The position numbers were made by a program, and so were the translations under genes. Shown one piece after another: positions 34,603 through 46,346 of a DNA stretch of 64,000 nt. Below the pieces are notes generated by a model. The model was not told where the DNA came from and ran no database searches. It worked only from the letters and a program-made list of their open reading frames with translations. Source of the stretch: Parcubacteria group bacterium (GTDB taxonomy: Bacteria; Patescibacteriota; Minisyncoccia; Moranbacterales; UBA11712); assembly GCA_041659065.1 (NCBI GenBank), contig JBAZYY010000001.1, positions 274,228 through 338,227 on the forward strand, read 5' to 3'. Each line of letters opens with the position of its first letter. Within the stretch, counting starts at the first letter, position 1.

Positions 34603-34625
34603 TTCCTAAAGTTCGACTTTAGGAA
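34603..34625. repeat. conserved 3' hairpin TTCCTAAAGT-TCGA-ACTTTAGGAA (overlaps Fic stop codon)
   Basis: 10-bp perfect inverted repeat with no U-run. Same family as 33324, 37655, 39128 and 39264. Confidence 0.8.
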
Positions 34626-35554
34626 TGTTTAAAAGCTTTATTTAACTCCCTGGAAAATTCTCTGACAGCTTCAATATTTAGATTGAGGCTGTGGCCCAAG
34701 ATATCCCTTGTCATCTGCGCTCTCAACTCTTTTTTCTTCTTCTCAAGATTGTTTTTGATATTGTCAGGCAATTCACTTTGTTTCATCAGCATACCATTGT
34801 TATCCATTGGATGACCATATAGTTTTCTTTCTTCTGGTGACATCAGGTCATATGCAGCCAGAAATCCAATTGAATCCAGGTCAAATCCCCACGACTCGCC
34901 TTCCAGCCGGACATTAAATTCATTGTTAACAAAAGCCAAGCTCAGACCTCTTCCTCTGAGCTGATTCGCAAACCAGCCGTAATTGACCACGTCGTGATAG
35001 GTATCTATCTTCATATTCCTTTCGATCAAAATATTTTTGAGATCCTGTTGAAGCGAAGCAGCTTCTTTTTGAATGTCTGGAGAAAACAAAAAATATACCA
35101 GCCTTGCTGTTCTCCCATTTCCATCCGCAAAAGGATGCGTATATATAATCAAGTTATACATTGTGAGGGCAATGGCTTCATTTTTATTGGGATGATCTCC
35201 ATTTGCGATCACTTTCATTTTCTCAAATGTTTCCCGAAAAATTTCATTTTTGTCTTCCATGTCTGGCGGCATGAGATTCACCAAATCGTCGTACCAACCA
35301 TCTACCAGCTTTACCTTTTTGTTTAGAATTTCTCTCTTTGGTGGCTCAATGTCGTTTATTATTCCATTCGTTCTTTTCATGAGATCCAGAAACCGCTCAA
35401 AATCAGAATTCCGAATCAGCTCGATATATACTTCGCTGCTACCCATGTCCCGTTCTCCAACGGATCTTTTCATGAATGTATAAATTTTGTCCGCCCCCCG
35501 ATTTTTCCTGTCTGCAGACTCCTGCTGCTGCTCTTGAAAGTCCTCCAATAACAT
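34619..35554 (-). CDS. Fic/Doc-family protein (AMPylase-type toxin-like)
   Basis: Canonical Fic motif HPFADGNGRTARL (HxFx[D/E]GNGRxxR). Confidence 0.8.
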   Translation of the reverse strand: MLLEDFQEQQQESADRKNRGADKIYTFMKRSVGERDMGSSEVYIELIRNSDFERFLDLMKRTNGIINDIEPPKREILNKKVKLVDGWYDDLVNLMPPDMEDKNEIFRETFEKMKVIANGDHPNKNEAIALTMYNLIIYTHPFADGNGRTARLVYFLFSPDIQKEAASLQQDLKNILIERNMKIDTYHDVVNYGWFANQLRGRGLSLAFVNNEFNVRLEGESWGFDLDSIGFLAAYDLMSPEERKLYGHPMDNNGMLMKQSELPDNIKNNLEKKKKELRAQMTRDILGHSLNLNIEAVREFSRELNKAFKHS

Positions 35555-36981: not shown

Positions 36982-37539
36982 TTATCTTTTGAAAAAATGC
37001 CCTTTAAGGGTGGCTTCATTGTCGATGCTTGTGGTAGTGACTATCCTGACGTAGGGACCGGCCGAATAGAGCGAAACCAATTCCTGAATGGGTTTTTCGA
37101 ACGGATATGGTGAAACAAAGACGCTATGCTGGAGCTTCAAAAATTTGAGTGTCCGCAAATGCTCGCGCAAAATATCACGGAACAGCCGATTTTTCTCAGG
37201 AATGTCAAAAAGGACAAGTCGCCATTTTCCGTCCCAGCGCTTCGGTTTTTTGAATCTAATGGAACTCCCCAGGAGACTCAATATCTTTGCCTCTCGTCTG
37301 CCTCTTGTCGTCAGAACCAATCTAAAAGATCCGTCAGGCAACTTCTTCTCTTCAAGCAGCTTCTCTAAAGACAAACGGCGCAAAGAACGGTTGAAATTGC
37401 GCTGGTCTATTTTTTTCCATTCTGACCGCAGCATGCGCAACGTCCGATAATATTGCCGGGGAGACCGGGAAAAACCAAGGGCGAATCCGCCTGAAAGGCT
37501 GAGGAGTATTTTCTTTTGCACCGGGCCGAATTTATACAT
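36982..37539 (-). CDS. PaaX-like putative transcriptional regulator (wHTH + Cas2-like-fold C-terminal domain)
   Basis: KRWDGKWRLVLFDIPE...LRTLKFLKLQHSVFVSPYP resembles PaaX_C. The N-terminus is basic and wHTH-like. Confidence 0.45.
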   Translation of the reverse strand: MYKFGPVQKKILLSLSGGFALGFSRSPRQYYRTLRMLRSEWKKIDQRNFNRSLRRLSLEKLLEEKKLPDGSFRLVLTTRGRREAKILSLLGSSIRFKKPKRWDGKWRLVLFDIPEKNRLFRDILREHLRTLKFLKLQHSVFVSPYPFEKPIQELVSLYSAGPYVRIVTTTSIDNEATLKGHFFKR

Positions 37540-39796: not shown

Positions 39797-39955
39797 TCAT
39801 TCTTCAATATATTTCGGATTGTCACAATCGCTTTTATATACTGGCATAGTATCGCCGGCTTCATCCACAGCATCAAAAAGTTCATATGCTACCCAATACT
39901 CCGGCACAGTCGTCATTTGACCATAACTTTTGTGTTCGAATTTTACAAATGGCAT
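39797..39955 (-). CDS. 52-aa acidic small protein
   Basis: MPFVKFEHKSYGQMTTVPEYWVAYELFDAVDEAGDTMPVYKSDCDNPKYIEE. Starts 14 nt after the hsdS stop, with the Pro-rich gene 60 nt downstream. Confidence 0.4.
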   Translation of the reverse strand: MPFVKFEHKSYGQMTTVPEYWVAYELFDAVDEAGDTMPVYKSDCDNPKYIEE

Positions 39956-39969
39956 AAGATTTGAAAAAA

Positions 39970-41415
39970 TTATTTAATCGCCTTTTCAATAATCTCATCA
40001 ATCTTTTTCCTCTCCACTTCGATTTTTTTCTTCATTTCCTCTTGCTTGTCCAGCTCCGCTTTGATTTCATCAACGATTTTTTGCTGTCGCTTTATGTCTG
40101 GAATTGGTAACTCGAAATCATATAATTCTTTCGAAGAGATTTTTACCATTGTTTGGTTTTTTCCTTTAGCGGAATACTTGAAATAAATTCTTCCAATAAT
40201 AGAGTTGAACGCATATGCTATATATTCTTTATTTATCTCATTTTCATCAAATTTTATTTTTATCATTAGATCTGGATAAATAAATTCTTTGTCTTCACTT
40301 TCAACTTTTGCCACAGCTGCTAATGCAACTAGCCCTAGCGTGTTCCCTCGACTTACAAAAAAATCACCGTTTTGGACAAAAAAATCTCGGCTATTATTTC
40401 TTGTTTGTTGTGTATATTTAGGATTGCCAAACGTCATTTTCCCATTTTTCTGAATTGAATCTATTCCAAGAATCGCCTGCCCACCTTCATCCTCATTGCA
40501 TTCAGGTGACCATCCATTTTTTGTGCTTTTAATAAATTTTCCCAAAAAATCAATACTATCATTGTTTTTGTAAAGTTCACCCTGAACTCGTTCAAGCTGA
40601 CTCCATCTGTAGCTAGATCTCAAATTGTTGTTTTTAAAATCGAGCAGTGACAGATCAATATAAAATTTTCTATCATTATCAATCTTATGAATTTTTTCCA
40701 AATCAAACCCAAACTCGCGAGCAAAGACCTTGTTCATAGCTTCCTGCGCAGGAGAAATTTGATTTTTCAGCTCCTTGATTTTATTCTCAATCGGTTCAAT
40801 CTGAGAAATAATTTCATTTTCGAGTTTCTCCAGCTTATCAATAGCAGCCTTACTAAATTTCAAATAAAATAAATCATCTTCCTTGAGAGTCGGATAGCCT
40901 TTCCCCTGTCTTGAAATCGCCATTAAGTCATTATAGAATATTGTTCTGAAAGCATAATAGAATATTTTGTTTAATTTCCTTGGTTTCAAGTTGATAAAAG
41001 CGGTTGTGTAAAAATAATCTTTATTTTTCTCATCAACAAAGACATATTTCCTTAAATTCGGTCTGACTTTTGCCAATAGGATGTCATTCTCGTTGGATTT
41101 TTGTATGTCTCCCTTCTCTATTTTTTTGAAATAATCAGCGACCAACTCATTTATATTGGAAAAGTTCAATTTTTCCGGCTCAACGTCTCCCTGTTTTGTC
41201 ACATTTCCGATTTCGGCATAATAAAAATCATCATCTAGGTGGTCTATCAAATCCATTCTTTCTTTTTTGGTTGAGTTTACTATTTCAAATAAATCCCTGA
41301 ATGAGTATCTTTCTTGCCTCTCATTTTTATTAAAATCGGCAAAATCAACGTCGAATCTATTCGACGCTTCTTTCGCTAATTCCAGAAAATCAATTGCGAA
41401 TTGTTTTAGCGGCAT
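39970..41415 (-). CDS. hsdS: restriction-modification specificity subunit (HsdS-like, two TRDs)
   Basis: Two variable TRDs separated by conserved coiled-coil regions; the C-terminal RQQKIVDEIKAELDKQEEMKKKIE is typical of HsdS/BcgIB. Confidence 0.8.
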   Translation of the reverse strand: MPLKQFAIDFLELAKEASNRFDVDFADFNKNERQERYSFRDLFEIVNSTKKERMDLIDHLDDDFYYAEIGNVTKQGDVEPEKLNFSNINELVADYFKKIEKGDIQKSNENDILLAKVRPNLRKYVFVDEKNKDYFYTTAFINLKPRKLNKIFYYAFRTIFYNDLMAISRQGKGYPTLKEDDLFYLKFSKAAIDKLEKLENEIISQIEPIENKIKELKNQISPAQEAMNKVFAREFGFDLEKIHKIDNDRKFYIDLSLLDFKNNNLRSSYRWSQLERVQGELYKNNDSIDFLGKFIKSTKNGWSPECNEDEGGQAILGIDSIQKNGKMTFGNPKYTQQTRNNSRDFFVQNGDFFVSRGNTLGLVALAAVAKVESEDKEFIYPDLMIKIKFDENEINKEYIAYAFNSIIGRIYFKYSAKGKNQTMVKISSKELYDFELPIPDIKRQQKIVDEIKAELDKQEEMKKKIEVERKKIDEIIEKAIK

Positions 41416-41417
41416 AA

Positions 41418-43007
41418 TTATTTCTCAATAAAATCAATGAATTCTTTCTTCTTATCTTCTGTTAATTTTCCTGATTTCAATTGGTTAAGAATTTCCAGTG
41501 GTTTATCTCTTTCCTTTTCATCGAACTCAACATATCTTTCCAATGTATCTGGAAATTTTTTAATATCAATAGTAAAAATATTTTTATCATCAAATATTTC
41601 TTTATTCCTTTCTTTGTGTTCTTCGTTTTTGTCGCCATCCCCATCAAATAAAACACTATGTTTAATACCAAATTCCAAACATAGACTCATAAACCTTGGT
41701 ATATTCCACTTGCCGCCACAATCAATAATATAAACATTCGCGTCTACATTAAAATTTTGAATTAGATAGTTAAGAAAAACTTTGTCAGTTGAACCTTCAA
41801 CTAATATAACCTTATCAACAAAAAACATTGTATTTCTATCCGGATTTAGCCAAAGAACAAAACTAAAGATGTCTTCCTCTGTCTTGAGCTGATCTAAAAA
41901 ATTTTGACTGGCTTTGAATATTTCCGTTTCAGTATTTTCTTTCACATAGCGAAAGATGCTGAAAAGTGCGTTGCTCTTCGTGGTAATAAGATTTGGTGAA
42001 TGTGTACACAAAAATATTTGACTAGATCCAGATTTTGCTATTTCTTCTAAATTTTTAAGGAGTTTCTTTTCCTGGTCATAGTGAAGCAATGATTCGGGCT
42101 CCTCATATAGCAATAAAGTAAGATCTCCACTGAATATTTTTTTACTAGCTTTCTTTTTTTTACTTTCAACTTGAGCCCATAATAGCAACAGGCTGTTGAC
42201 GATTGACCTTTGCGCACCTGATCCAAGGGTCAGGGGGTCTTCCTCTTGACCCGTATCCTCAGACAAAAGTTTTAATTTTGAGCCTGAAATAATTATATCC
42301 TCCGGTGTTGGCGGTGAAATATCAATTTGAGATCGCAATCGCCAAGACGAAAGCATTTCCGTTAAACTTTCTTCGATTTCATGCACACTCTTTAAGTTGC
42401 CTTCTCCGCTATCCTTTATAGGACTTTTCAAATCATTCGTAAATTTTTTCACTTCCCTAACCAAATCATTCCATGAATCTAATTCTACTAAAGCTTCAGA
42501 AAGTATTCTGCTTATGAGTTTTGTAAAGATTGAAGATTTTGTTTTCTTTAACTCTTCGCTCAGATCTTTTACTGCTGGAATGTATATTATGTCGCCCAAC
42601 TTTCCCACAGGAACATTCTTATCCCCAAAAAATTCACTCTCTCTTTCCTTTATGATTCCACCTTTAATTTCAAACCCATGAAATTCACCTTTTAATTTTT
42701 CCTTGGTAAATCTCTTAACGACTTTTAGCCTATTATTTGGTAATTTATAAAATTCTGGCAACTGTGAAAACTCTTCTTCATGAAGCTCATATTCTAGGGT
42801 AATTTCGATAGGCGCAGAACTGCAGCTTCGACAAAAATCCTCAACAGTCACATTATAATCAGCATAAAATGCTCGAATAGCATGAATGACTGAAGATTTT
42901 CCCGCATTATTTTGACCGATAAATGTCCAAATATCATCTGTTGGACCACTCAAATTTGCGCTTTTGATGGATCGAAAATTTTTTATTTCAATTTCCTTTA
43001 TCTTCAT
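41418..43007 (-). CDS. OLD-family ATP-dependent endonuclease (ABC-type ATPase + TOPRIM; class 1 OLD / fused PARIS-like)
   Basis: Walker A GQNNAGKSS; Walker B LLLYEEPE; TOPRIM VILVEGSTDKVFL...FDGDGD (E...DxD). Confidence 0.7.
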   Translation of the reverse strand: MKIKEIEIKNFRSIKSANLSGPTDDIWTFIGQNNAGKSSVIHAIRAFYADYNVTVEDFCRSCSSAPIEITLEYELHEEEFSQLPEFYKLPNNRLKVVKRFTKEKLKGEFHGFEIKGGIIKERESEFFGDKNVPVGKLGDIIYIPAVKDLSEELKKTKSSIFTKLISRILSEALVELDSWNDLVREVKKFTNDLKSPIKDSGEGNLKSVHEIEESLTEMLSSWRLRSQIDISPPTPEDIIISGSKLKLLSEDTGQEEDPLTLGSGAQRSIVNSLLLLWAQVESKKKKASKKIFSGDLTLLLYEEPESLLHYDQEKKLLKNLEEIAKSGSSQIFLCTHSPNLITTKSNALFSIFRYVKENTETEIFKASQNFLDQLKTEEDIFSFVLWLNPDRNTMFFVDKVILVEGSTDKVFLNYLIQNFNVDANVYIIDCGGKWNIPRFMSLCLEFGIKHSVLFDGDGDKNEEHKERNKEIFDDKNIFTIDIKKFPDTLERYVEFDEKERDKPLEILNQLKSGKLTEDKKKEFIDFIEK

Positions 43008-43015
43008 GATATTTC

Positions 43016-43330
43016 CTATTTATAAACCACACTGCTCCGCAGTTCAAACGCATCTACCCCCAAAATAATCGCCGCGAAATCAATCAGCCAATGATAGATC
43101 CGTCCATAGGTTGCATTGAAACCGCCGAGTTGCCTATTTTTGTATTCATCAATGAAATTCCACAGTTCTTTTTCCAAATCAATCCCTTTTTGCAAAATCT
43201 TCTCGGCAAACTCCGGCAAAGCTTCGCGAAAATATTTTTCCCGCTCCGGCGTATGTCCATATTGATCAAAAAACTGCTGATTGAAATTCTGGATTTCTTT
43301 TCCCATTTTTGTTTTTGCCTCCTCGGTCAT
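43016..43330 (-). CDS. hypothetical protein
   Basis: 104-aa ORF packed between the GIY-YIG and OLD genes. Confidence 0.45.
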   Translation of the reverse strand: MTEEAKTKMGKEIQNFNQQFFDQYGHTPEREKYFREALPEFAEKILQKGIDLEKELWNFIDEYKNRQLGGFNATYGRIYHWLIDFAAIILGVDAFELRSSVVYK

Positions 43331-43359
43331 ATTTTTTTGTTAATTTTTATTTTGCGGTT

Positions 43360-43614
43360 TTACCCTATTAAGTAAGATTTGAGCCTGTTTTTTATGTATC
43401 TCTTGTCGTAAATTGTTTTAAGATATTTCTCTCTTTTGGTGGCATCTTGTTGATTTAGACAAGCTTCATAATAAACAAGGTTTAATGGCCTTCTGTCTTT
43501 AGTAGAATCCACTAGCCCTTTGTTATGTTGCTCAAATCTTAATTTTAAATTTTTAGTATAACCAACATAGTTTTTGTTATCTTTTAAGCTTCGCAAAACA
43601 TAAACGTATCGCAT
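43360..43614 (-). CDS. GIY-YIG nuclease superfamily protein (stand-alone, YhbQ-like)
   Basis: MRYVYVLRSLKDNKNYVGYTKNLKLRFEQHN matches the GIY..YIG..R..H core. Confidence 0.7.
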   Translation of the reverse strand: MRYVYVLRSLKDNKNYVGYTKNLKLRFEQHNKGLVDSTKDRRPLNLVYYEACLNQQDATKREKYLKTIYDKRYIKNRLKSYLIG

Positions 43615-43655
43615 GCTAGCTTGGCAAAAATTTAAAATTTACTTAATAGGGTGAA

Positions 43656-46010
43656 TCACCACTCGATTTTTCGCATATAATCCAACGCGGTTTCCATTTT
43701 TCCATCATCCACCAAGACCTTCCCATCTTTGTCGATTCGATAGAGCTCGTTCGGCATTGGTTTTTCGCCGCGCTTGGTACGCTTGTAACCGACGTTTTCC
43801 ACTTCCGCCATGAAAATTTTGTAGTTGAGCTCGCGGGCCACTTCGCCAAAAACCCACCAGGTGTTCACGAAGCCAAAAACATCTTTCGTATCGTTGTCAT
43901 ACTTGCAAAGATCTTCGAGTTCCGAGGCGTATTTTTTTGCCAATTCTCTCGCAGCAAGCTTCTGATCATCTTTCTCGACGTAATTTTTGAGCATCCTGGA
44001 GAGAACTTCTTTTTCTTCTTTTTCCTTCAATCCTTTGACTGACGGTAATTTATTCCTATTTTTTCCGTTCAAATATACTTCGGCCAAATTTTCACACCTA
44101 GTCCTAAGATTTCCCCATTCGTTTCCATATTTTTTCCAAAGTTCGTCCCATTTTTCAATTTCCGATTTGGCTTTCTTCTCGGCGAAGAGCAAGCTCGTTT
44201 TGGTCGAAGTGAATGGTTCAAAGGTAACTTGCGGGAGTGACACCACCGCTTTGACTTTGAAATATTTGTAGATAAAAAGACGGATATATTTGTTTTCTGT
44301 CGTGTCGAAAACGCTTTCCGGCAAAACCGCGCCCAACCGGCCGCCATCTTTGAGCAGTTGATACCACCTTTCCACAAAAAGATTCTCACTATTTTTCTTG
44401 CCGCCGAAAATAAATTCTTCTTTGACATTGTCTTTGGTGTCTTTATCCAAATCGACGCTAAATGGCGGATTGGTCACGATAATGTCAAATTGCTCATTCA
44501 CCTCTTTGTCAAAATATTTCTTGTCACTTTTTGATTGTTGCAGCTTGTTGGAATAGAAATTGAAAGGCAAAAGCCCGTCTTTCACATAGATATTGGCCGA
44601 GCCATCGCCATGCAAAATCATATTCACTTTTGTAGCTGTCCCCAAATTGAAATTTATATCCGTTCCATAAATATATTCCTCCGCCCATTGATTTTCCAGA
44701 TTATCGGGATAGAACCAGCTTTGCATCTTGTTTTCAATATTTCTGGAATTTTCTATTCCATCCTTGAATCTGCGCTTGATGTTTTCAGTGATAAACTTCA
44801 TGTATTCAATCAGAAAAGTTCCACTGCCGGCGCTCGGATCAATTATGTAAGGAAGTTTTTGATTATTATTGATGTTGGAAATGGCCAGTTTGTCCGCCTG
44901 CAAGCCCCACAGCAAAAACCTCACCACATTTATATGGGTAAAAAATTGTCCTTTTGTTTGTTTGAATCCGTCGCGAATTATTCCCTCAAAGAAATCTCCC
45001 AGAATATCTTTTCCGTTAAAACTATTCTTCCCGTCCACGAAGGAATAGCCCTCTAGTTGCGACACTGCGTACTTAAGTTTAGAGAGAGGAAATTTGTTTT
45101 CATCGACGATATAGGATTTTTTTAATTTGACTTCGTCCGTGATTCCCAGCCTCTCCTGCAACGCTCTTCTGTAAATCTCGTTTATTCTTTCAAAAAGCTG
45201 TTCGTTGGTTTCAAAACTTTTTCCGTCTTCAAAAGAAAATATTTGAAATCCATATTTTTCTCCTTGTCTTCGCTCACTCTCATCCTGGATTTTGGCCAAA
45301 ATGATATTGACCAGCGAAGAAAAAATATCATTATCATCCGTGCCGCCGCCGCCCCAAAGCACATTGTGCAAATTCTTACTCAGAGAATCAAGATTTTCGT
45401 GAGTAAAGCTTGTTTCCAAATCTTTCTCTCCTCCTTTCACATACGGCTCTTTTTGTGCTTTGCCATATCTGACCGGCAGCTCGTCCGCAAAATCGCGCAC
45501 TTCCTTCCAGGAGCTGAAGGAGGAAAATTTTTCATAGTCAATCAAAATGCACTTGTCTTTTATTTCATTTTCTATTATTTCAAAAGTATAGAGCGTGAGA
45601 TATTTAACTTTCTTTCCTTGGCCTTGTTCTTGTGAAGCTAGATTAAAAAGCTGTTTTTCAATAACCTCATCTTTGTCTTTTTCATAGTCTTGAGGACTTT
45701 TGAGTTCAACATACAAAAATGCGTCGCCTTTGTCATCCCTGACAATGATATCAATTCTCGGTTTGTTTACTTTTGGTCTTCCGATATCGTATTCTTTTTC
45801 AAGTTCGATGTTTTCCGGTTTATATCCGAGTTCATTTACTAATTTAGCAAGAATATATGCTCGAACAATTTCCTCGTCGCCTTTGAATTTTTCGATTTTC
45901 CAACCCTTTATTTTTTCGGAATATTTGACTTTTTTATTTTTAAAATCATAGGCTTCAACAACCTTTATTTTTTGACTATCGAGACATTTTTCAATTAATT
46001 GTGTATTCAT
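43656..46010 (-). CDS. hsdM: gamma-class N6-adenine DNA methyltransferase (HsdM-like) with N-terminal HsdR_N-like PD-(D/E)xK domain (BcgIA/type IIG-like architecture)
   Basis: Motif I IIDPSAGSGTFL; motif IV IVTNPPFSV. The N-terminal RIDIIVRDDKGDAFLYVELKSP resembles the HsdR_N nuclease motif. The ORF extends to a GTG at 46055; the first ATG is at 46010. Confidence 0.7.
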   Translation of the reverse strand: MNTQLIEKCLDSQKIKVVEAYDFKNKKVKYSEKIKGWKIEKFKGDEEIVRAYILAKLVNELGYKPENIELEKEYDIGRPKVNKPRIDIIVRDDKGDAFLYVELKSPQDYEKDKDEVIEKQLFNLASQEQGQGKKVKYLTLYTFEIIENEIKDKCILIDYEKFSSFSSWKEVRDFADELPVRYGKAQKEPYVKGGEKDLETSFTHENLDSLSKNLHNVLWGGGGTDDNDIFSSLVNIILAKIQDESERRQGEKYGFQIFSFEDGKSFETNEQLFERINEIYRRALQERLGITDEVKLKKSYIVDENKFPLSKLKYAVSQLEGYSFVDGKNSFNGKDILGDFFEGIIRDGFKQTKGQFFTHINVVRFLLWGLQADKLAISNINNNQKLPYIIDPSAGSGTFLIEYMKFITENIKRRFKDGIENSRNIENKMQSWFYPDNLENQWAEEYIYGTDINFNLGTATKVNMILHGDGSANIYVKDGLLPFNFYSNKLQQSKSDKKYFDKEVNEQFDIIVTNPPFSVDLDKDTKDNVKEEFIFGGKKNSENLFVERWYQLLKDGGRLGAVLPESVFDTTENKYIRLFIYKYFKVKAVVSLPQVTFEPFTSTKTSLLFAEKKAKSEIEKWDELWKKYGNEWGNLRTRCENLAEVYLNGKNRNKLPSVKGLKEKEEKEVLSRMLKNYVEKDDQKLAARELAKKYASELEDLCKYDNDTKDVFGFVNTWWVFGEVARELNYKIFMAEVENVGYKRTKRGEKPMPNELYRIDKDGKVLVDDGKMETALDYMRKIEW

Positions 46011-46047: not shown

Positions 46048-46080
46048 ACTATCACTATATCACTATTATTATATCACTGC
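46048..46080. promoter_or_regulatory. three TATCACT direct repeats upstream of the MTase gene (candidate operator)
   Basis: TATCACT at 46050, 46058 and 46072, between the AbrB-like gene and hsdM. Confidence 0.35.
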
Positions 46081-46101
46081 AAGCTTTTTCCTGTGGATAA
46101 A

Positions 46102-46278
46102 TTACTTTTTCCAATCCCTAATCACCACCCCGCCTTTAATTTTTTTGACCACCACTTTCTGCTTCTCCCGCCAGCCGAGTTCGCGAACAAGTTCAATCGG
46201 CAAGGTGAGGCCGATTGATTTTTTGCCAATCTTCGTCAACTTGCGGATGTTTGTTTCGCCAGCTTTTTTAGTCGGCAT
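46102..46278 (-). CDS. AbrB/MazE/SpoVT-family DNA-binding protein (antitoxin-like or controller)
   Basis: GKKSIGLTLPIELVRELGWREKQKVVVKKIKGGVVIRDW matches a swapped-hairpin AbrB domain. ATG at 46278. Confidence 0.6.
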   Translation of the reverse strand: MPTKKAGETNIRKLTKIGKKSIGLTLPIELVRELGWREKQKVVVKKIKGGVVIRDWKK

Positions 46279-46346
46279 ATTTTTTGAAGTAAGCAATTAA
46301 TTACTTAATTCCTTGAGTTCTTCAAATATTAAGCTCGTCCATAAGC

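What the first reader, a model, noticed from the sequence alone, without database searches (positions are those of the whole stretch)
39970..46010. R-M locus (MTase with N-terminal PD-(D/E)xK domain + separate HsdS) interrupted by GIY-YIG, a hypothetical and a fused OLD-family ATPase-TOPRIM nuclease; no HsdR
The minus-strand gene order is MTase - GIY-YIG (84 aa) - hyp104 - OLD-like (Walker A/B + E..DxD TOPRIM) - HsdS, with gaps of 2 to 41 bp, so this is probably one operon. No HsdR helicase-nuclease is in the window. The MTase N-terminus carries an HsdR_N-like DIIVRDD...YVELK motif, so it may be a BcgI/type IIB-like RM fusion. OLD-family ATPase-TOPRIM proteins underlie Gabija (GajA) and PARIS (AriAB), and PARIS senses anti-restriction proteins. 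An OLD-like gene embedded between M and S suggests a coupled backup defense. Alternatively the OLD or GIY-YIG nuclease could supply restriction activity to an M+S core. I do not recognise this exact M-GIY-hyp-OLD-S arrangement as a described system.
Basis: partly seen in the sequence, partly recalled or inferred. Interest (0 to 1): 0.8.

Follow-up and report, generated by a model that had tools for sequence, protein, structure and literature searches.

The report
BsaXI-type restriction operon carrying OLD nuclease
This is an ordinary BsaXI-type (Type IIB) restriction-modification operon in a Parcubacteria genome that has picked up an extra OLD-family nuclease gene, from a lineage that often sits inside restriction operons of different types, which suggests (but does not prove) a built-in second line of anti-phage defence.

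Summary
In detail: five complete minus-strand genes, gaps of 41, 29, 8 and 2 nt.

- **Core system.** The "MTase" and "HsdS" are clear orthologues of RM.BsaXI (E 1e-276) and S.BsaXI (E 2e-117). This is a short-form Type IIB R-M system. All four BsaXI nuclease residues are conserved, so no HsdR is needed.
- **hyp104.** It is a conserved, lineage-specific helical partner of this RM sub-lineage.
- **GIY-YIG.** It is a ~300-bp insertion, absent from all four relatives whose RM-hyp104 junction was recovered.
- **OLD gene.** It is intact and Class-1-like (best fold match TsOLD). It is a discrete cassette in a variable slot between RM/hyp104 and S. In relatives that slot holds GmrSD-like, DUF6119, weakly Abi_C-like or unknown genes, or nothing.
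- **OLD clade.** In 10 of 15 distinct loci, its close relatives (55-75% identity) sit inside R-M operons: Type I (S-OLD-HsdR), Type III (Mod-OLD-Res), Type II and Type IIB. OLDs 80-85% identical sit in different R-M types. Distant homologues do not sit in R-M operons.

Most likely reading: a two-layer defence operon with a co-transcribed, self-sufficient OLD. Guardian or post-restriction exonuclease roles remain open. It is a new variant of a known theme (rloAB, PrrC, OLD modules in BREX). Interest is moderate.

The parts
46102..46296 (-). Small AbrB/MazE-type gene (64 aa) directly upstream of RM. It is a candidate transcriptional regulator of the operon, in the manner of a controller (C) protein; that role is inferred.
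   Evidence: Pfam MazE_antitoxin, E 9e-5, just below the gathering score. Homologues of 61-65% identity occupy the same position upstream of RM in L039 and L041.
46068..46097 (-). Promoter-like site (TCCACA, 18 nt, TG-TATAAT) between the AbrB-like gene and RM.
   Evidence: 10 of 12 matches with an extended -10. This is weak evidence: the region's count of promoter-like sites does not exceed the shuffles.
43656..46010 (-). RM subunit of a BsaXI-family Type IIB enzyme. It has an N-terminal PD-(D/E)xK endonuclease and an N6-adenine methyltransferase. It is the short form, without the C-terminal paddle.
   Evidence: PDB 8w0p_A RM.BsaXI, E 1.1e-276, residues 4-761 aligned to 6-775. Residues E71, D87, E102 and K104 align to BsaXI E73, D90, E105 and K107, which are essential for cleavage (PMC11997821). 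DPSAGSGTF and NPPF motifs are present.
43354..43654 (-). Insertion of about 300 bp carrying a free-standing 84-aa GIY-YIG nuclease gene (ORF 43614..43360).
   Evidence: Pfam GIY-YIG, E 1.3e-15. The segment is missing from the orthologous RM-hyp104 spacer in L039, L041, L042 and L053. GC3 is 0.29, against about 0.48 for background genes. Similar small GIY-YIG genes lie at other positions near related loci: L041, L046 and L010.
43016..43330 (-). hyp104: a conserved small helical protein that accompanies this RM sub-lineage. Its function is unknown.
41418..43007 (-). OLD-family nuclease with an ABC ATPase and a TOPRIM domain, in Class-1-like architecture. It is a discrete cassette in the variable slot of the operon.
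   Evidence: Pfam AAA_15 plus OLD-like_TOPRIM. PADLOC Old, E 2.9e-57. Catalytic residues are invariant. The best sequence and fold match is TsOLD 6p74. The cassette boundaries 43009 and 41419 come from the comparison with L039. GC3 is 0.28. Close homologues lie inside R-M operons.
39970..41415 (-). S (specificity) subunit of the Type IIB enzyme, with two target-recognition domains.
   Evidence: PDB 8w0p_C S.BsaXI, E 1.7e-117, residues 10-479 aligned to 9-473. Identity is 44% overall (TRD1 46%, TRD2 49%). The N-terminus and the central and C-terminal regions are conserved with L039 and L042, while the TRDs have diverged.
39797..39955 (-). Conserved 52-aa ORF just downstream of S. It serves as a flank marker of the locus; membership of the operon is uncertain.
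   Evidence: About 80% identical to the 59-aa ORF after S in L039. No family found.

Best explanation
The locus is a two-layer defence operon.

**Layer 1 (shown by homology).** This is a BsaXI-family Type IIB restriction-modification enzyme. By analogy with BsaXI, two RM subunits and one S subunit form an (RM)2S complex. The complex binds a bipartite site through the two TRDs of S. It methylates adenine with SAM and cuts unmodified DNA on both sides of the site with the N-terminal PD-(D/E)xK domain. It has no ATP-driven translocase, so no HsdR is required.

**hyp104.** It is a small helical accessory protein specific to this RM sub-lineage. Its role is not known; a regulator or adaptor role is a guess.

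**Layer 2 (inferred).** A Class-1-like OLD nuclease sits in a variable cargo slot between RM/hyp104 and S. The gaps of 8 and 2 nt leave no room for a promoter of its own, so it is probably made from the R-M transcript. I take it to be a self-sufficient, ATPase-controlled TOPRIM DNase, as P2 Old and Vibrio cholerae OLD are. On this reading it acts on an infection cue that does not depend on any particular R-M protein. The operon then supplies expression, co-transfer and stable maintenance rather than a physical partner.

**GIY-YIG.** The gene is a separate, recent and probably selfish insertion, and is not part of the mechanism.
For: **Core system**
- RM and S are orthologues of BsaXI.
- The four residues essential for BsaXI cleavage are conserved (PMC11997821).
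- Short homologues under 800 aa that lack the paddle are a recognised branch of the family (PMC11997821).

**hyp104**
- It follows RM at 70-87% identity in four independent relatives.

**Variable slot in BsaXI-like operons of relatives**
- Nothing (L045).
- A 319-aa unknown (L044).
- DUF6119 (L046-49).
- A 172-aa unknown (L039).
- GmrSD_N (L041).
- A 62-aa ORF plus a 204-aa protein with a weak precomputed Abi_C hit that a direct Pfam scan did not reproduce (L042).

**OLD as a cassette**
- The window and L039 are collinear except for the GIY-YIG insertion and the OLD cassette.
- GIY-YIG, OLD and S have GC3 of 0.28-0.34. RM and hyp104 have 0.44-0.46 and background genes about 0.48.

**OLD is intact and Class-1-like**

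**OLD clade in R-M operons**
- Type III, Mod-OLD-Res: L004, L007, L050.
- Type I, S-OLD-HsdR: L016, L020/L022, L051.
- Type II: L001, L019.
- Type IIB: the window and L053.
- This is 10 of 15 distinct loci with an R-M gene as immediate neighbour. It is 11 of 15 when L024 (Type ISP, one gene away) is counted.
- Gaps to the neighbouring genes are short, about 1-30 nt and under 15 nt at most junctions.

**No fixed R-M partner**
- OLDs that are 80-85% identical lie in different R-M types. This argues against a specific R-M protein partner.

**Contrast and precedent**
- The five homologues of 25-30% identity whose neighbours were scanned are not next to R-M genes.
- Single-gene OLDs defend on their own (PMC12392090, PMC13261556).
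Against: - No experiment or expression data exist for this locus.
- Recurrent placement inside R-M operons, rather than merely beside them, could mean real functional coupling, which the 'autonomous' reading plays down.
- Class 1 OLDs are defined as single genes not near other defence genes (PMC10568477). This clade does not fit that description, so extrapolating from P2 Old, TsOLD or Vc OLD is uncertain.
- Four or five of the 15 loci show no R-M neighbour.
- R-M systems are the dominant defence in these small genomes (my own knowledge, not tested here), which raises the chance of adjacency.
- The sample of loci is small and was gathered by similarity, not by census.
Confidence: 0.5

Rival explanations
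1. R-M guardian. The OLD protein stays silent while restriction works. It is switched on by a phage anti-restriction factor or by failure of restriction, as PARIS is by Ocr or PrrC by Stp. It then degrades nucleic acid and aborts the infection.
For: - The clade sits inside R-M operons of five types.
- PADLOC AriA matches the ATPase half at E 1.1e-33.
- R-M guardians are an established concept (PMC12707154).
- OLD-ABC/TOPRIM modules in BREX loci are interpreted the same way (PMC12839542).
- A sensor that binds a phage protein rather than the R-M enzyme would tolerate hopping between R-M types.
Against: - The protein is a fused OLD with an OLD-like_TOPRIM domain, not an AriA plus DUF4435-type AriB pair.
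- Its best structural match is Class 1 TsOLD, not AriA.
- The partners include Type II systems, which DNA-mimic anti-restriction proteins such as Ocr are not known to inhibit (my own knowledge).
- No trigger is known.
Confidence: 0.22
2. Cut-and-chew cooperation. The R-M enzyme makes the first double-strand breaks. The OLD protein, an ATP-dependent 5'-3' exonuclease and nickase, then destroys the fragments. This is the job RecBCD does after restriction in E. coli.
For: - The association spans all DNA-cleaving R-M types, whatever their subunits. That fits a substrate common to all of them, namely DNA ends.
- P2 Old and TsOLD are nonspecific 5'-3' exonucleases that also linearise circles (PMC10568477).
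- In Type I and Type III operons the gene lies immediately upstream of the restriction subunit.
Against: - It was not checked whether this genome lacks RecBCD or AddAB. One relative's locus (L001) encodes a UvrD-PDDEXK protein nearby.
- Vc OLD only nicks DNA (PMC12392090).
- Four or five loci have no R-M neighbour.
- There is no direct evidence.
Confidence: 0.18
3. The OLD or GIY-YIG nuclease provides the restriction activity for a methylase-plus-specificity core that cannot cut DNA on its own.
For: There is no HsdR in the window, and two extra nuclease genes lie inside the operon.
Against: - RM carries the complete BsaXI endonuclease domain, with all four essential residues (PMC11997821).
- BsaXI activity is reconstituted from RM plus S alone (PMC9159934, abstract).
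- Relatives have RM-S with no gene in between (L045) or with unrelated cargo.
- GIY-YIG is absent from all four relatives whose RM-hyp104 junction was recovered.
Confidence: 0.03
4. A reduced MADS-like methylation-associated system, in which the methyltransferase, the specificity protein and the ATPase/TOPRIM components act as one machine.
For: - NCBIfam MAD2 hits RM (E 3e-53). PADLOC mad2 (7e-29) and mad5 (3.8e-16) hit RM and S.
- MADS includes a TOPRIM-like DUF4276 protein, Mad4 (PMC12065111), and an AAA ATPase, MAD3 (NCBIfam name).
Against: - MAD2 scores 181 bits against a cutoff of 720, and MAD3 scores 22.7 against 420.
- Generic R-M models and BsaXI match far better.
- MADS is described as a system of five or more subunits (PMC12904381). 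No counterpart of the remaining subunits is present here.
- OLD is an exchangeable cassette.
Confidence: 0.03

Closest known systems
BsaXI Type IIB restriction-modification enzyme (RM.BsaXI + S.BsaXI; PDB 8w0p; PMC11997821)
   Same: - RM aligns over about 760 residues at E 1e-276, and S over about 470 residues at E 2e-117.
- The N-terminal PD-(D/E)xK domain with its four essential residues, the SAM-binding and NPPF motifs, and a two-TRD S subunit are all present.
- There is no translocase.
   Different: - RM is the short form, 784 aa against 916 aa. It lacks the C-terminal paddle, whose residues D816 and E823 matter for BsaXI cleavage.
- S is only 44% identical, so the recognition site may differ.
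- Three extra genes lie between RM and S, and a small AbrB-like gene lies upstream.
Class 1 OLD nucleases (P2 Old, Thermus scotoductus OLD 6p74, Vibrio cholerae OLD, E. coli YbjD)
   Same: - A single polypeptide of about 530 aa with an ABC ATPase and a TOPRIM domain.
- The catalytic residues are invariant.
- TsOLD is the best sequence and fold match.
- No helicase, reverse transcriptase or separate TOPRIM partner is present.
   Different: - Class 1 is defined by context as isolated single genes away from other defence genes (PMC10568477).
- This clade is embedded, with very short gaps, inside R-M operons.
- It is only about 19% identical to TsOLD.
rloA/rloB ('restriction-linked ORFs') inside Campylobacter jejuni Type I hsd loci, and the related AbiL and MADS Mad3/Mad4 pairs
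   Same: - rloA and rloB lie inside the hsd island alongside hsdS and hsdR (PMC2928727). In the Type I relatives here, OLD lies between S and HsdR.
- RloB and DUF4276 (Mad4) are TOPRIM-like, with a conserved Glu and a DxD motif (PMC12065111).
   Different: - Those are two-gene pairs with RloB or DUF4276-type TOPRIM domains. I recall RloA to be an ATPase, but the sources read here do not say so.
- Here the ATPase and an OLD-like_TOPRIM domain are fused in one protein. Pfam RloB and DUF4276 did not match at E <= 0.01.
- The host system here is Type IIB.
PARIS (AriA/AriB) and the OLD-ABC/TOPRIM modules embedded in BREX and BREX-related loci (PMC12839542)
   Same: - An OLD-type ABC ATPase coupled to a TOPRIM nuclease.
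- It is located inside a methylation-based defence operon.
- A backup or guardian role has been proposed for those modules.
   Different: - PARIS is a split pair with a DUF4435-type AriB that cleaves tRNA after sensing Ocr.
- Here the protein is fused and Class-1-like, the trigger and target are unknown, and the host operon is a classical R-M system.
PrrC/RloC anticodon nucleases embedded in Type I R-M loci
   Same: An accessory nuclease gene placed inside an R-M operon, with a proposed second-line role.
   Different: - The protein family is unrelated.
- PrrC binds its cognate EcoprrI enzyme physically. Hopping of this OLD cassette between R-M types argues against a fixed partner.

Membership tests
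Type IIB R-M, BsaXI family | A single RM polypeptide with an N-terminal PD-(D/E)xK endonuclease fused to a gamma-class N6-adenine methyltransferase. | tested here: met
   HSDR_N_2 plus N6_Mtase. Near full-length alignment to RM.BsaXI, E 1.1e-276.
Type IIB R-M, BsaXI family | Endonuclease catalytic residues (BsaXI E73, D90, E105, K107). | tested here: met
   They align to E71, D87, E102 and K104 of the window protein (alignment; mutagenesis data in PMC11997821).
Type IIB R-M, BsaXI family | A separate S subunit with two target-recognition domains. | tested here: met
   S.BsaXI, E 1.7e-117 over residues 10-479. PADLOC Specificity_I.
Type IIB R-M, BsaXI family | No ATP-dependent translocase or HsdR. 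| tested here: met
   No helicase domain in RM. No HsdR-like ORF in the flanks.
Type IIB R-M, BsaXI family | Cleavage on both sides of a bipartite recognition site. | not testable with these tools
   This needs biochemistry. The count of ACN5CTCC sites in the window is uninformative: 20 found against 14.6 +/- 3.9 expected.
Type IIB R-M, BsaXI family | C-terminal paddle (BsaXI residues 800-835). This is a feature of the long branch only. | tested here: not met
   RM ends at residue 784, and the alignment stops at BsaXI residue 775. hyp104 shows no similarity to the C-termini of long forms. Short forms without a paddle are a recognised branch (PMC11997821).
OLD family nucleases | An N-terminal ABC ATPase (Walker A, Walker B, H-loop) plus a C-terminal TOPRIM domain with Glu and DxD. 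| tested here: met
   Pfam. Invariant G31/N33/G36-K37-S38, E302-E303-P304-E305, H336, E404-G405 and D455xD457. AlphaFold2 model and Foldseek search.
OLD Class 1 | A single gene, not associated with other defence genes (a definition by context, PMC10568477). | tested here: not met
   It is embedded between hyp104 and S with gaps of 8 and 2 nt. In 10 of 15 distinct clade loci an R-M gene is an immediate neighbour.
OLD Class 2 (Gabija GajA) | A UvrD/PcrA-like helicase (GajB) immediately downstream. | tested here: not met
   The downstream gene is S. GajA is a weaker match than TsOLD.
OLD Class 3 (retron) | An adjacent reverse transcriptase and ncRNA. | tested here: not met
   No reverse-transcriptase ORF in the locus. 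The retron Eco8 effector model scores 54 bits against a cutoff of 250. No ncRNA search was run.
OLD Class 4 (PARIS) | Separate AriA ATPase and AriB (DUF4435 TOPRIM) proteins, triggered by Ocr. | tested here: not met
   It is a fused protein whose TOPRIM domain matches OLD-like_TOPRIM. The AriA model matches only residues 1-341. The trigger cannot be tested here.
MADS | The MAD2 methyltransferase and MAD3 ATPase equivalogs, within a system described as having five or more subunits. | tested here: not met
   MAD2 scores 181 bits against a cutoff of 720. MAD3 scores 22.7 against 420.
Classical Type I R-M | HsdM (with an HsdM_N domain), HsdS and the HsdR translocase-nuclease. | tested here: not met
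   No HsdM_N domain in RM. No HsdR.
GIY-YIG homing endonuclease | A GIY-YIG catalytic domain plus a DNA-binding domain, in an intron or as a free-standing mobile gene. | tested here: inconclusive
   The catalytic domain is present (E 1.3e-15), but the 84-aa protein has no room for a DNA-binding domain. The group I intron endonuclease model scores 22 bits against a cutoff of 56. The insertion behaviour is shown.

The most novel reading that the evidence does not exclude
The Patescibacteria OLD clade is a new context class of OLD nucleases, functionally dedicated to restriction-modification. It would be a portable module that plugs into Type I, II, III, IIB and ISP operons. It would then act either as a guardian fired when restriction is blocked, or as the exonuclease that finishes off restricted DNA in organisms with little recombination and repair machinery. 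In the same spirit, the gap between RM and S in BsaXI-like operons would be a dedicated docking slot for second-line defence genes.
Probability: 0.3. Interest if true: 0.7.

Novelty: new variant of a known kind. Interest (0 to 1): 0.5.

Why it matters
**The restriction system.** It is a routine member of a family whose structure was solved in 2025, so it adds little by itself.

**What is useful** is the pair of comparative patterns around it.
- A fused, Class-1-like OLD nuclease lineage habitually lives inside restriction operons of different, unrelated types. This contradicts the textbook description of Class 1 OLDs as isolated genes.
- The gap between the RM and S genes of BsaXI-like operons acts as a slot that holds different defence-type genes in different relatives.

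**Experiments this enables.**
- It gives a compact, four-gene test bed for asking whether embedded nucleases guard, complement or merely ride along with restriction systems.
- It points to the unknown genes in the same slot (hyp104 and the 172-aa, 319-aa and DUF6119 proteins) as candidate defence or regulatory factors.
- It is relevant to how ultra-small Patescibacteria, which rely heavily on restriction systems, layer their immunity.

Tried and rejected
1. **hyp104 as a split-off BsaXI paddle.** There is no similarity to BsaXI (phmmer against the PDB, E up to 10) or to the C-termini of long-form homologues P0216 and P0234. The idea is rejected at the sequence level.
3. **A wider hyp104 family.** The exhaustive profile search found 8 representatives. 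The two large hits (P0263, P0266) are repeat-protein artefacts.
4. **MADS membership.** The scores are far below the cutoffs.
5. **Whether R-M embedding extends to distant OLD homologues.** The five loci of 25-30% identity whose neighbours were scanned have transposases, HTH proteins, an Lhr helicase, DUF2130 or a phosphoesterase as neighbours, not R-M genes.
6. **Guessing the recognition site.** The count of the BsaXI site ACN5CTCC in the window is not different from chance.
7. **Operon signals.** The promoter and terminator scan is not above the shuffles. Only one plausible promoter lies upstream of RM, and there is no convincing internal terminator.
8. **Mobility signature for the OLD cassette.** No conserved flanking motif was seen by eye in the printed flanks. 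No repeat search was run.
9. **Genome and metagenome scans.** The scans with the OLD alignment returned few loci (8 and 23), so the survey is a sample, not a census.

Full report
**1.

| Gene | Coordinates | Length |
|---|---|---|
| RM | 46010..43656 | 784 aa from the ATG |
| GIY-YIG | 43614..43360 | 84 aa |
| hyp104 | 43330..43016 | 104 aa |
| OLD | 43007..41418 | 529 aa |
| S | 41415..39970 | 481 aa |

The RM length equals that of the deposited protein P0121. The gaps are 41, 29, 8 and 2 nt.

Pfam confirms the domains:
- RM has HSDR_N_2 and N6_Mtase.
- The 84-aa protein has a GIY-YIG domain.
- The 529-aa protein has AAA_15 and OLD-like_TOPRIM.
- The 481-aa protein has Methylase_S.
- hyp104 matches nothing.

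The region has lower GC than its flanks. The source is a Parcubacteria (Patescibacteria/CPR) metagenome-assembled genome on a 339-kb contig.

**2. The R-M core is a BsaXI-type Type IIB system.**

- The "MTase" aligns over residues 4-761 with RM.BsaXI (PDB 8w0p_A, E 1.1e-276).
- The "HsdS" aligns over residues 10-479 with S.BsaXI (8w0p_C, E 1.7e-117). It is 44% identical overall.

BsaXI forms an (RM)2S complex. Its N-terminal REase domain (residues 1-192) needs E73, D90, E105 and K107 for cleavage (PMC11997821). In the alignment these correspond to E71, D87, E102 and K104 of the window protein, and all four are conserved. The SAM-binding motif (DPSAGSGTF) and the NPPF motif are also present.

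The same paper describes a branch of homologues under 800 aa that keeps the "knob" but lacks the C-terminal "paddle". The window protein, at 784 aa, belongs to that branch.

BsaXI activity is reconstituted from RM and S alone (PMC9159934). The absence of HsdR is therefore expected, and no helicase or HsdR gene is present in the flanks. This RM family is very large: 2291 hits at E <= 1e-30, and the 120 best hits are 74-89% identical to the query.

**3. What lies between RM and S: comparison with relatives.**

The closest RM homologues (78-89% identity) show these gene orders:

| Locus | Gene order |
|---|---|
| L039 | AbrB-like, RM, hyp104 (87%), 172-aa unknown, S, 59-aa ORF |
| L041 | GIY-YIG, AbrB-like, RM, hyp103 (80%), GmrSD_N protein (contig ends) |
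| L042 | RM, hyp104 (70%), 62-aa ORF, 204-aa protein (weak precomputed Abi_C hit), S |
| L044 | RM, 319-aa unknown, S |
| L046-49 | GmrSD, RM, DUF6119, S |
| L045 | RM directly followed by S |

A direct Pfam scan did not reproduce the Abi_C hit on the 204-aa protein of L042.

Two conclusions follow:
- hyp104 is not an interruption. It is a conserved partner of this RM sub-lineage.
- The position just upstream of S is a variable slot that carries different, mostly defence-type genes.

A nucleotide comparison of the window with L039 shows collinear homology through these features:
- TspO;
- the AbrB-like gene;
- RM;
- hyp104;
- the conserved N-terminal, central and C-terminal parts of S;
- the small downstream ORF.

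There are exactly two breaks. One is a ~300-bp segment (43654..43354) holding GIY-YIG. The other is the OLD gene (43009..41419), which L039 replaces with the 172-aa gene.

GIY-YIG is missing from the short A/T-rich RM-hyp104 spacer of L039, L041, L042 and L053. GC3 supports a mosaic origin:
- RM 0.44 and hyp104 0.46;
- background genes 0.47-0.51;
- GIY-YIG 0.29, OLD 0.28 and S 0.34.

**4. hyp104.**

- AlphaFold2 gives a confident five-helix bundle (pLDDT 88).
- An exhaustive profile search of 1.84 billion representatives finds 8 hits. Two of them are repeat-protein artefacts.
- I tested whether it is a detached equivalent of the BsaXI paddle and found no sequence similarity.
- Its function remains unknown. 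I treat it as a lineage-specific accessory or regulatory protein.

**5. The OLD protein and its clade.**

PADLOC's best model is Old (E 2.9e-57), followed by GajA and AriA models. In an alignment of 40 close homologues these residues are invariant:
- Walker A (G31/N33/G36-K37-S38);
- Walker B (E302-E303-P304-E305);
- the H-loop His336;
- the TOPRIM Glu404-Gly405 and Asp455-x-Asp457.

The best solved relative, by sequence profile and by fold, is the Class 1 Thermus scotoductus OLD (6p74; profile E 1.5e-28; Foldseek E 3e-24, TM 0.61/0.63). It is ahead of GajA and the retron Eco8 OLD.

The decisive result is the context of close homologues (55-75% identity):

| R-M type | Gene order | Loci |
|---|---|---|
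| Type III | Mod, OLD, Res | L004-6, L007, L050 |
| Type I | S, OLD, HsdR | L016 |
| Type I | HsdM, DUF2130, HsdS, OLD, HsdR | L020 |
| Type I | OLD, HsdR (contig ends upstream) | L022 |
| Type I | Fic, HsdM, HsdS, OLD, HsdR, T5orf172 | L051/52 |
| Type II | D12 MTase, MutH-like, N4/N6 MTase, OLD | L001-3 |
| Type II | RadC, OLD, MutH/Sau3AI-like, C5 MTase | L019 |
| Type ISP | Type ISP fragment, PIF1, OLD | L024 |
| Type IIB | RM (88%), hyp104 (87%), OLD (75%), S | L053 |

L053 holds the closest OLD homologue of all. It has the window's architecture without GIY-YIG.

The tally treats L020 and L022 (99% identical OLDs) as one locus:
- 10 of 15 distinct loci have an R-M gene as immediate same-strand neighbour;
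- 11 of 15 do so within one gene.

The other four show a MazG-like gene plus a Schlafen-type helicase (L010), a NOV_C protein (L023), or no defence neighbour (L008, L018). Gaps to the neighbouring genes are short, about 1-30 nt and under 15 nt at most junctions.

As a contrast, I scanned the neighbours of five homologues of 25-30% identity from other phyla. They have transposases, HTH proteins, an Lhr helicase, DUF2130 or a phosphoesterase, not R-M genes.

A distance tree shows Type I contexts in three different subclades. OLDs that are 85% identical sit in a Type II operon (L019) and a Type I operon (L020). OLDs that are 80% identical sit in an ISP context and a Type I context. The cassette therefore moves between R-M types over short evolutionary distances.

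**6. How it most likely works.**

*Shown by homology.* RM and S form a Type IIB enzyme that methylates its own DNA and cuts unmodified DNA on both sides of a bipartite site, with no need for ATP or HsdR.

*Inferred.* OLD is translated from the same transcript, because the spacers of 8 and 2 nt leave no room for a promoter. One plausible promoter lies upstream of RM at 46097..46068, and there is no convincing internal terminator (weak evidence).

The cassette keeps 80-85% identity while changing R-M type. A fixed physical partner among R-M subunits, as in PrrC-EcoprrI, is therefore unlikely.

Three readings remain, and no tool available here can separate them:
- **(a) Self-sufficient second layer.** OLD works alone, as Vibrio cholerae OLD does (PMC12392090) and as E. 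coli YbjD appears to on induced expression (PMC13261556). The operon gives it only expression and co-transfer. I prefer this reading (about 0.5) because it needs the fewest assumptions.
- **(b) Guardian.** OLD is triggered by anti-restriction factors, as PARIS and PrrC are (PMC12707154; PMC12839542).
- **(c) Finishing exonuclease.** OLD destroys DNA already cut by restriction, in line with the 5'-3' exonuclease activity of P2 Old and TsOLD (PMC10568477).

**7. Comparison with what is known.**

- **The R-M core** is a member of the BsaXI family. Every sequence-level defining feature was tested and met. The exception is the paddle, which the short branch lacks by definition.
- **The OLD protein** is an OLD-family nuclease with Class 1 architecture. 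[quoted passage not shown] It also fails the criteria for Class 2 (no helicase), Class 3 (no reverse transcriptase) and Class 4 (not split).
- **It is not MADS.** MAD2 scores 181 bits against a cutoff of 720.
- **The theme has precedents:**
  - rloA/rloB inside C. jejuni Type I loci (PMC2928727), with RloB and Mad4 (DUF4276) being TOPRIM-like (PMC12065111);
  - PrrC inside EcoprrI (PMC12707154);
  - OLD-ABC/TOPRIM modules in at least 1242 taxa with BREX and related systems, interpreted as backup effectors (PMC12839542).

I did not find these two points described in the papers I searched:
- a fused Class-1-like OLD clade that recurs across Type I, II, III, IIB and ISP operons;
- a cargo slot between RM and S of a Type IIB operon.

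**8. Verdict.**

However:
- the "R-M without HsdR" puzzle dissolves, because this is BsaXI-type;
- GIY-YIG is incidental;
- hyp104 is a conserved accessory gene of unknown role;
- the OLD embedding is a new variant of a known theme rather than a new kind of system.

Interest is moderate (0.5). The comparative pattern is clean and directly testable. If the OLD clade proves to be functionally dedicated to R-M (probability about 0.3), it would define a new context class of OLD nucleases.

Noticed in passing
window 46102-46296 (-); L039 6292-6462 and 7632-7796; L041 7746-7919: A small AbrB/MazE-type gene is conserved directly upstream of RM in the window, L039 and L041. In L039 it is duplicated around an NYN-domain gene. 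It may be a controller-type regulator of the R-M operon.
   Followed up: partly
L039 10737-11255; L041 10712-11422; L042 7784-8733; L044 9383-10342; L046 6727-8292: The slot between RM/hyp104 and S holds different genes in relatives: a 172-aa protein (weak LapA-type hit near its N-terminus), a GmrSD_N (Type IV restriction-like) protein, a 62-aa ORF plus a 204-aa protein with a weak precomputed Abi_C hit, a 319-aa unknown, and DUF6119. The unknowns are candidate defence genes.
   Followed up: partly
window 43360-43614; L041 7441-7683; L046 270-539; L010 3254-3502: Small free-standing GIY-YIG genes (80-89 aa, 36-50% identical) recur at different positions around these defence loci. This is consistent with a mobile or selfish element family in these genomes.
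   Followed up: partly
L020 2934-4106; L012 11774-13060: DUF2130 lies between HsdM and HsdS in a Type I operon that also carries the OLD cassette. It also lies directly downstream of a distant OLD homologue in Candidatus Thiodiazotropha. This may be a recurrent OLD-DUF2130 link.
   Followed up: no
L050 9029-10606; L051 627-1796 and 9729-10334: Other accessory genes flank the OLD-carrying R-M operons: AIPR (Abi-like) after Res, Fic before HsdM, and T5orf172 (GIY-YIG-like) after HsdR. These operons are small defence islands in their own right.
   Followed up: no
L045 9364-16373: A BsaXI-like RM-S pair with no cargo sits next to Mu-like phage genes (Mu Gp36, a Mu-type portal, and weak hits to cement-protein families). 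The system may be carried by a prophage there.
   Followed up: no
protein P0238 (1289 aa): One homologue is a single-chain fusion of the RM subunit with a Methylase_S domain. It shows that the RM-S junction is also resolved by fusion in some lineages.
   Followed up: no
window 39797-39955 (-); L039 12699-12878: A conserved 52-59-aa ORF (about 80% identical) immediately follows S in both genomes. It has no family match.
   Followed up: partly
window 36982-37539 (-) and 34619-35554 (-): Downstream of the locus lie a PaaX-like protein with a Cas2-like middle domain and a Fic/DOC-domain protein, among several ORFs with no family match. It is unclear whether these belong to a wider defence or mobile island.
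   Followed up: no
window 39970-46010: GC3 differs sharply within the operon. RM is 0.44 and hyp104 0.46, while GIY-YIG is 0.29, OLD 0.28 and S 0.34. This suggests that the 3' half (cargo plus S) was exchanged as a block more recently than RM and hyp104.
   Followed up: yes
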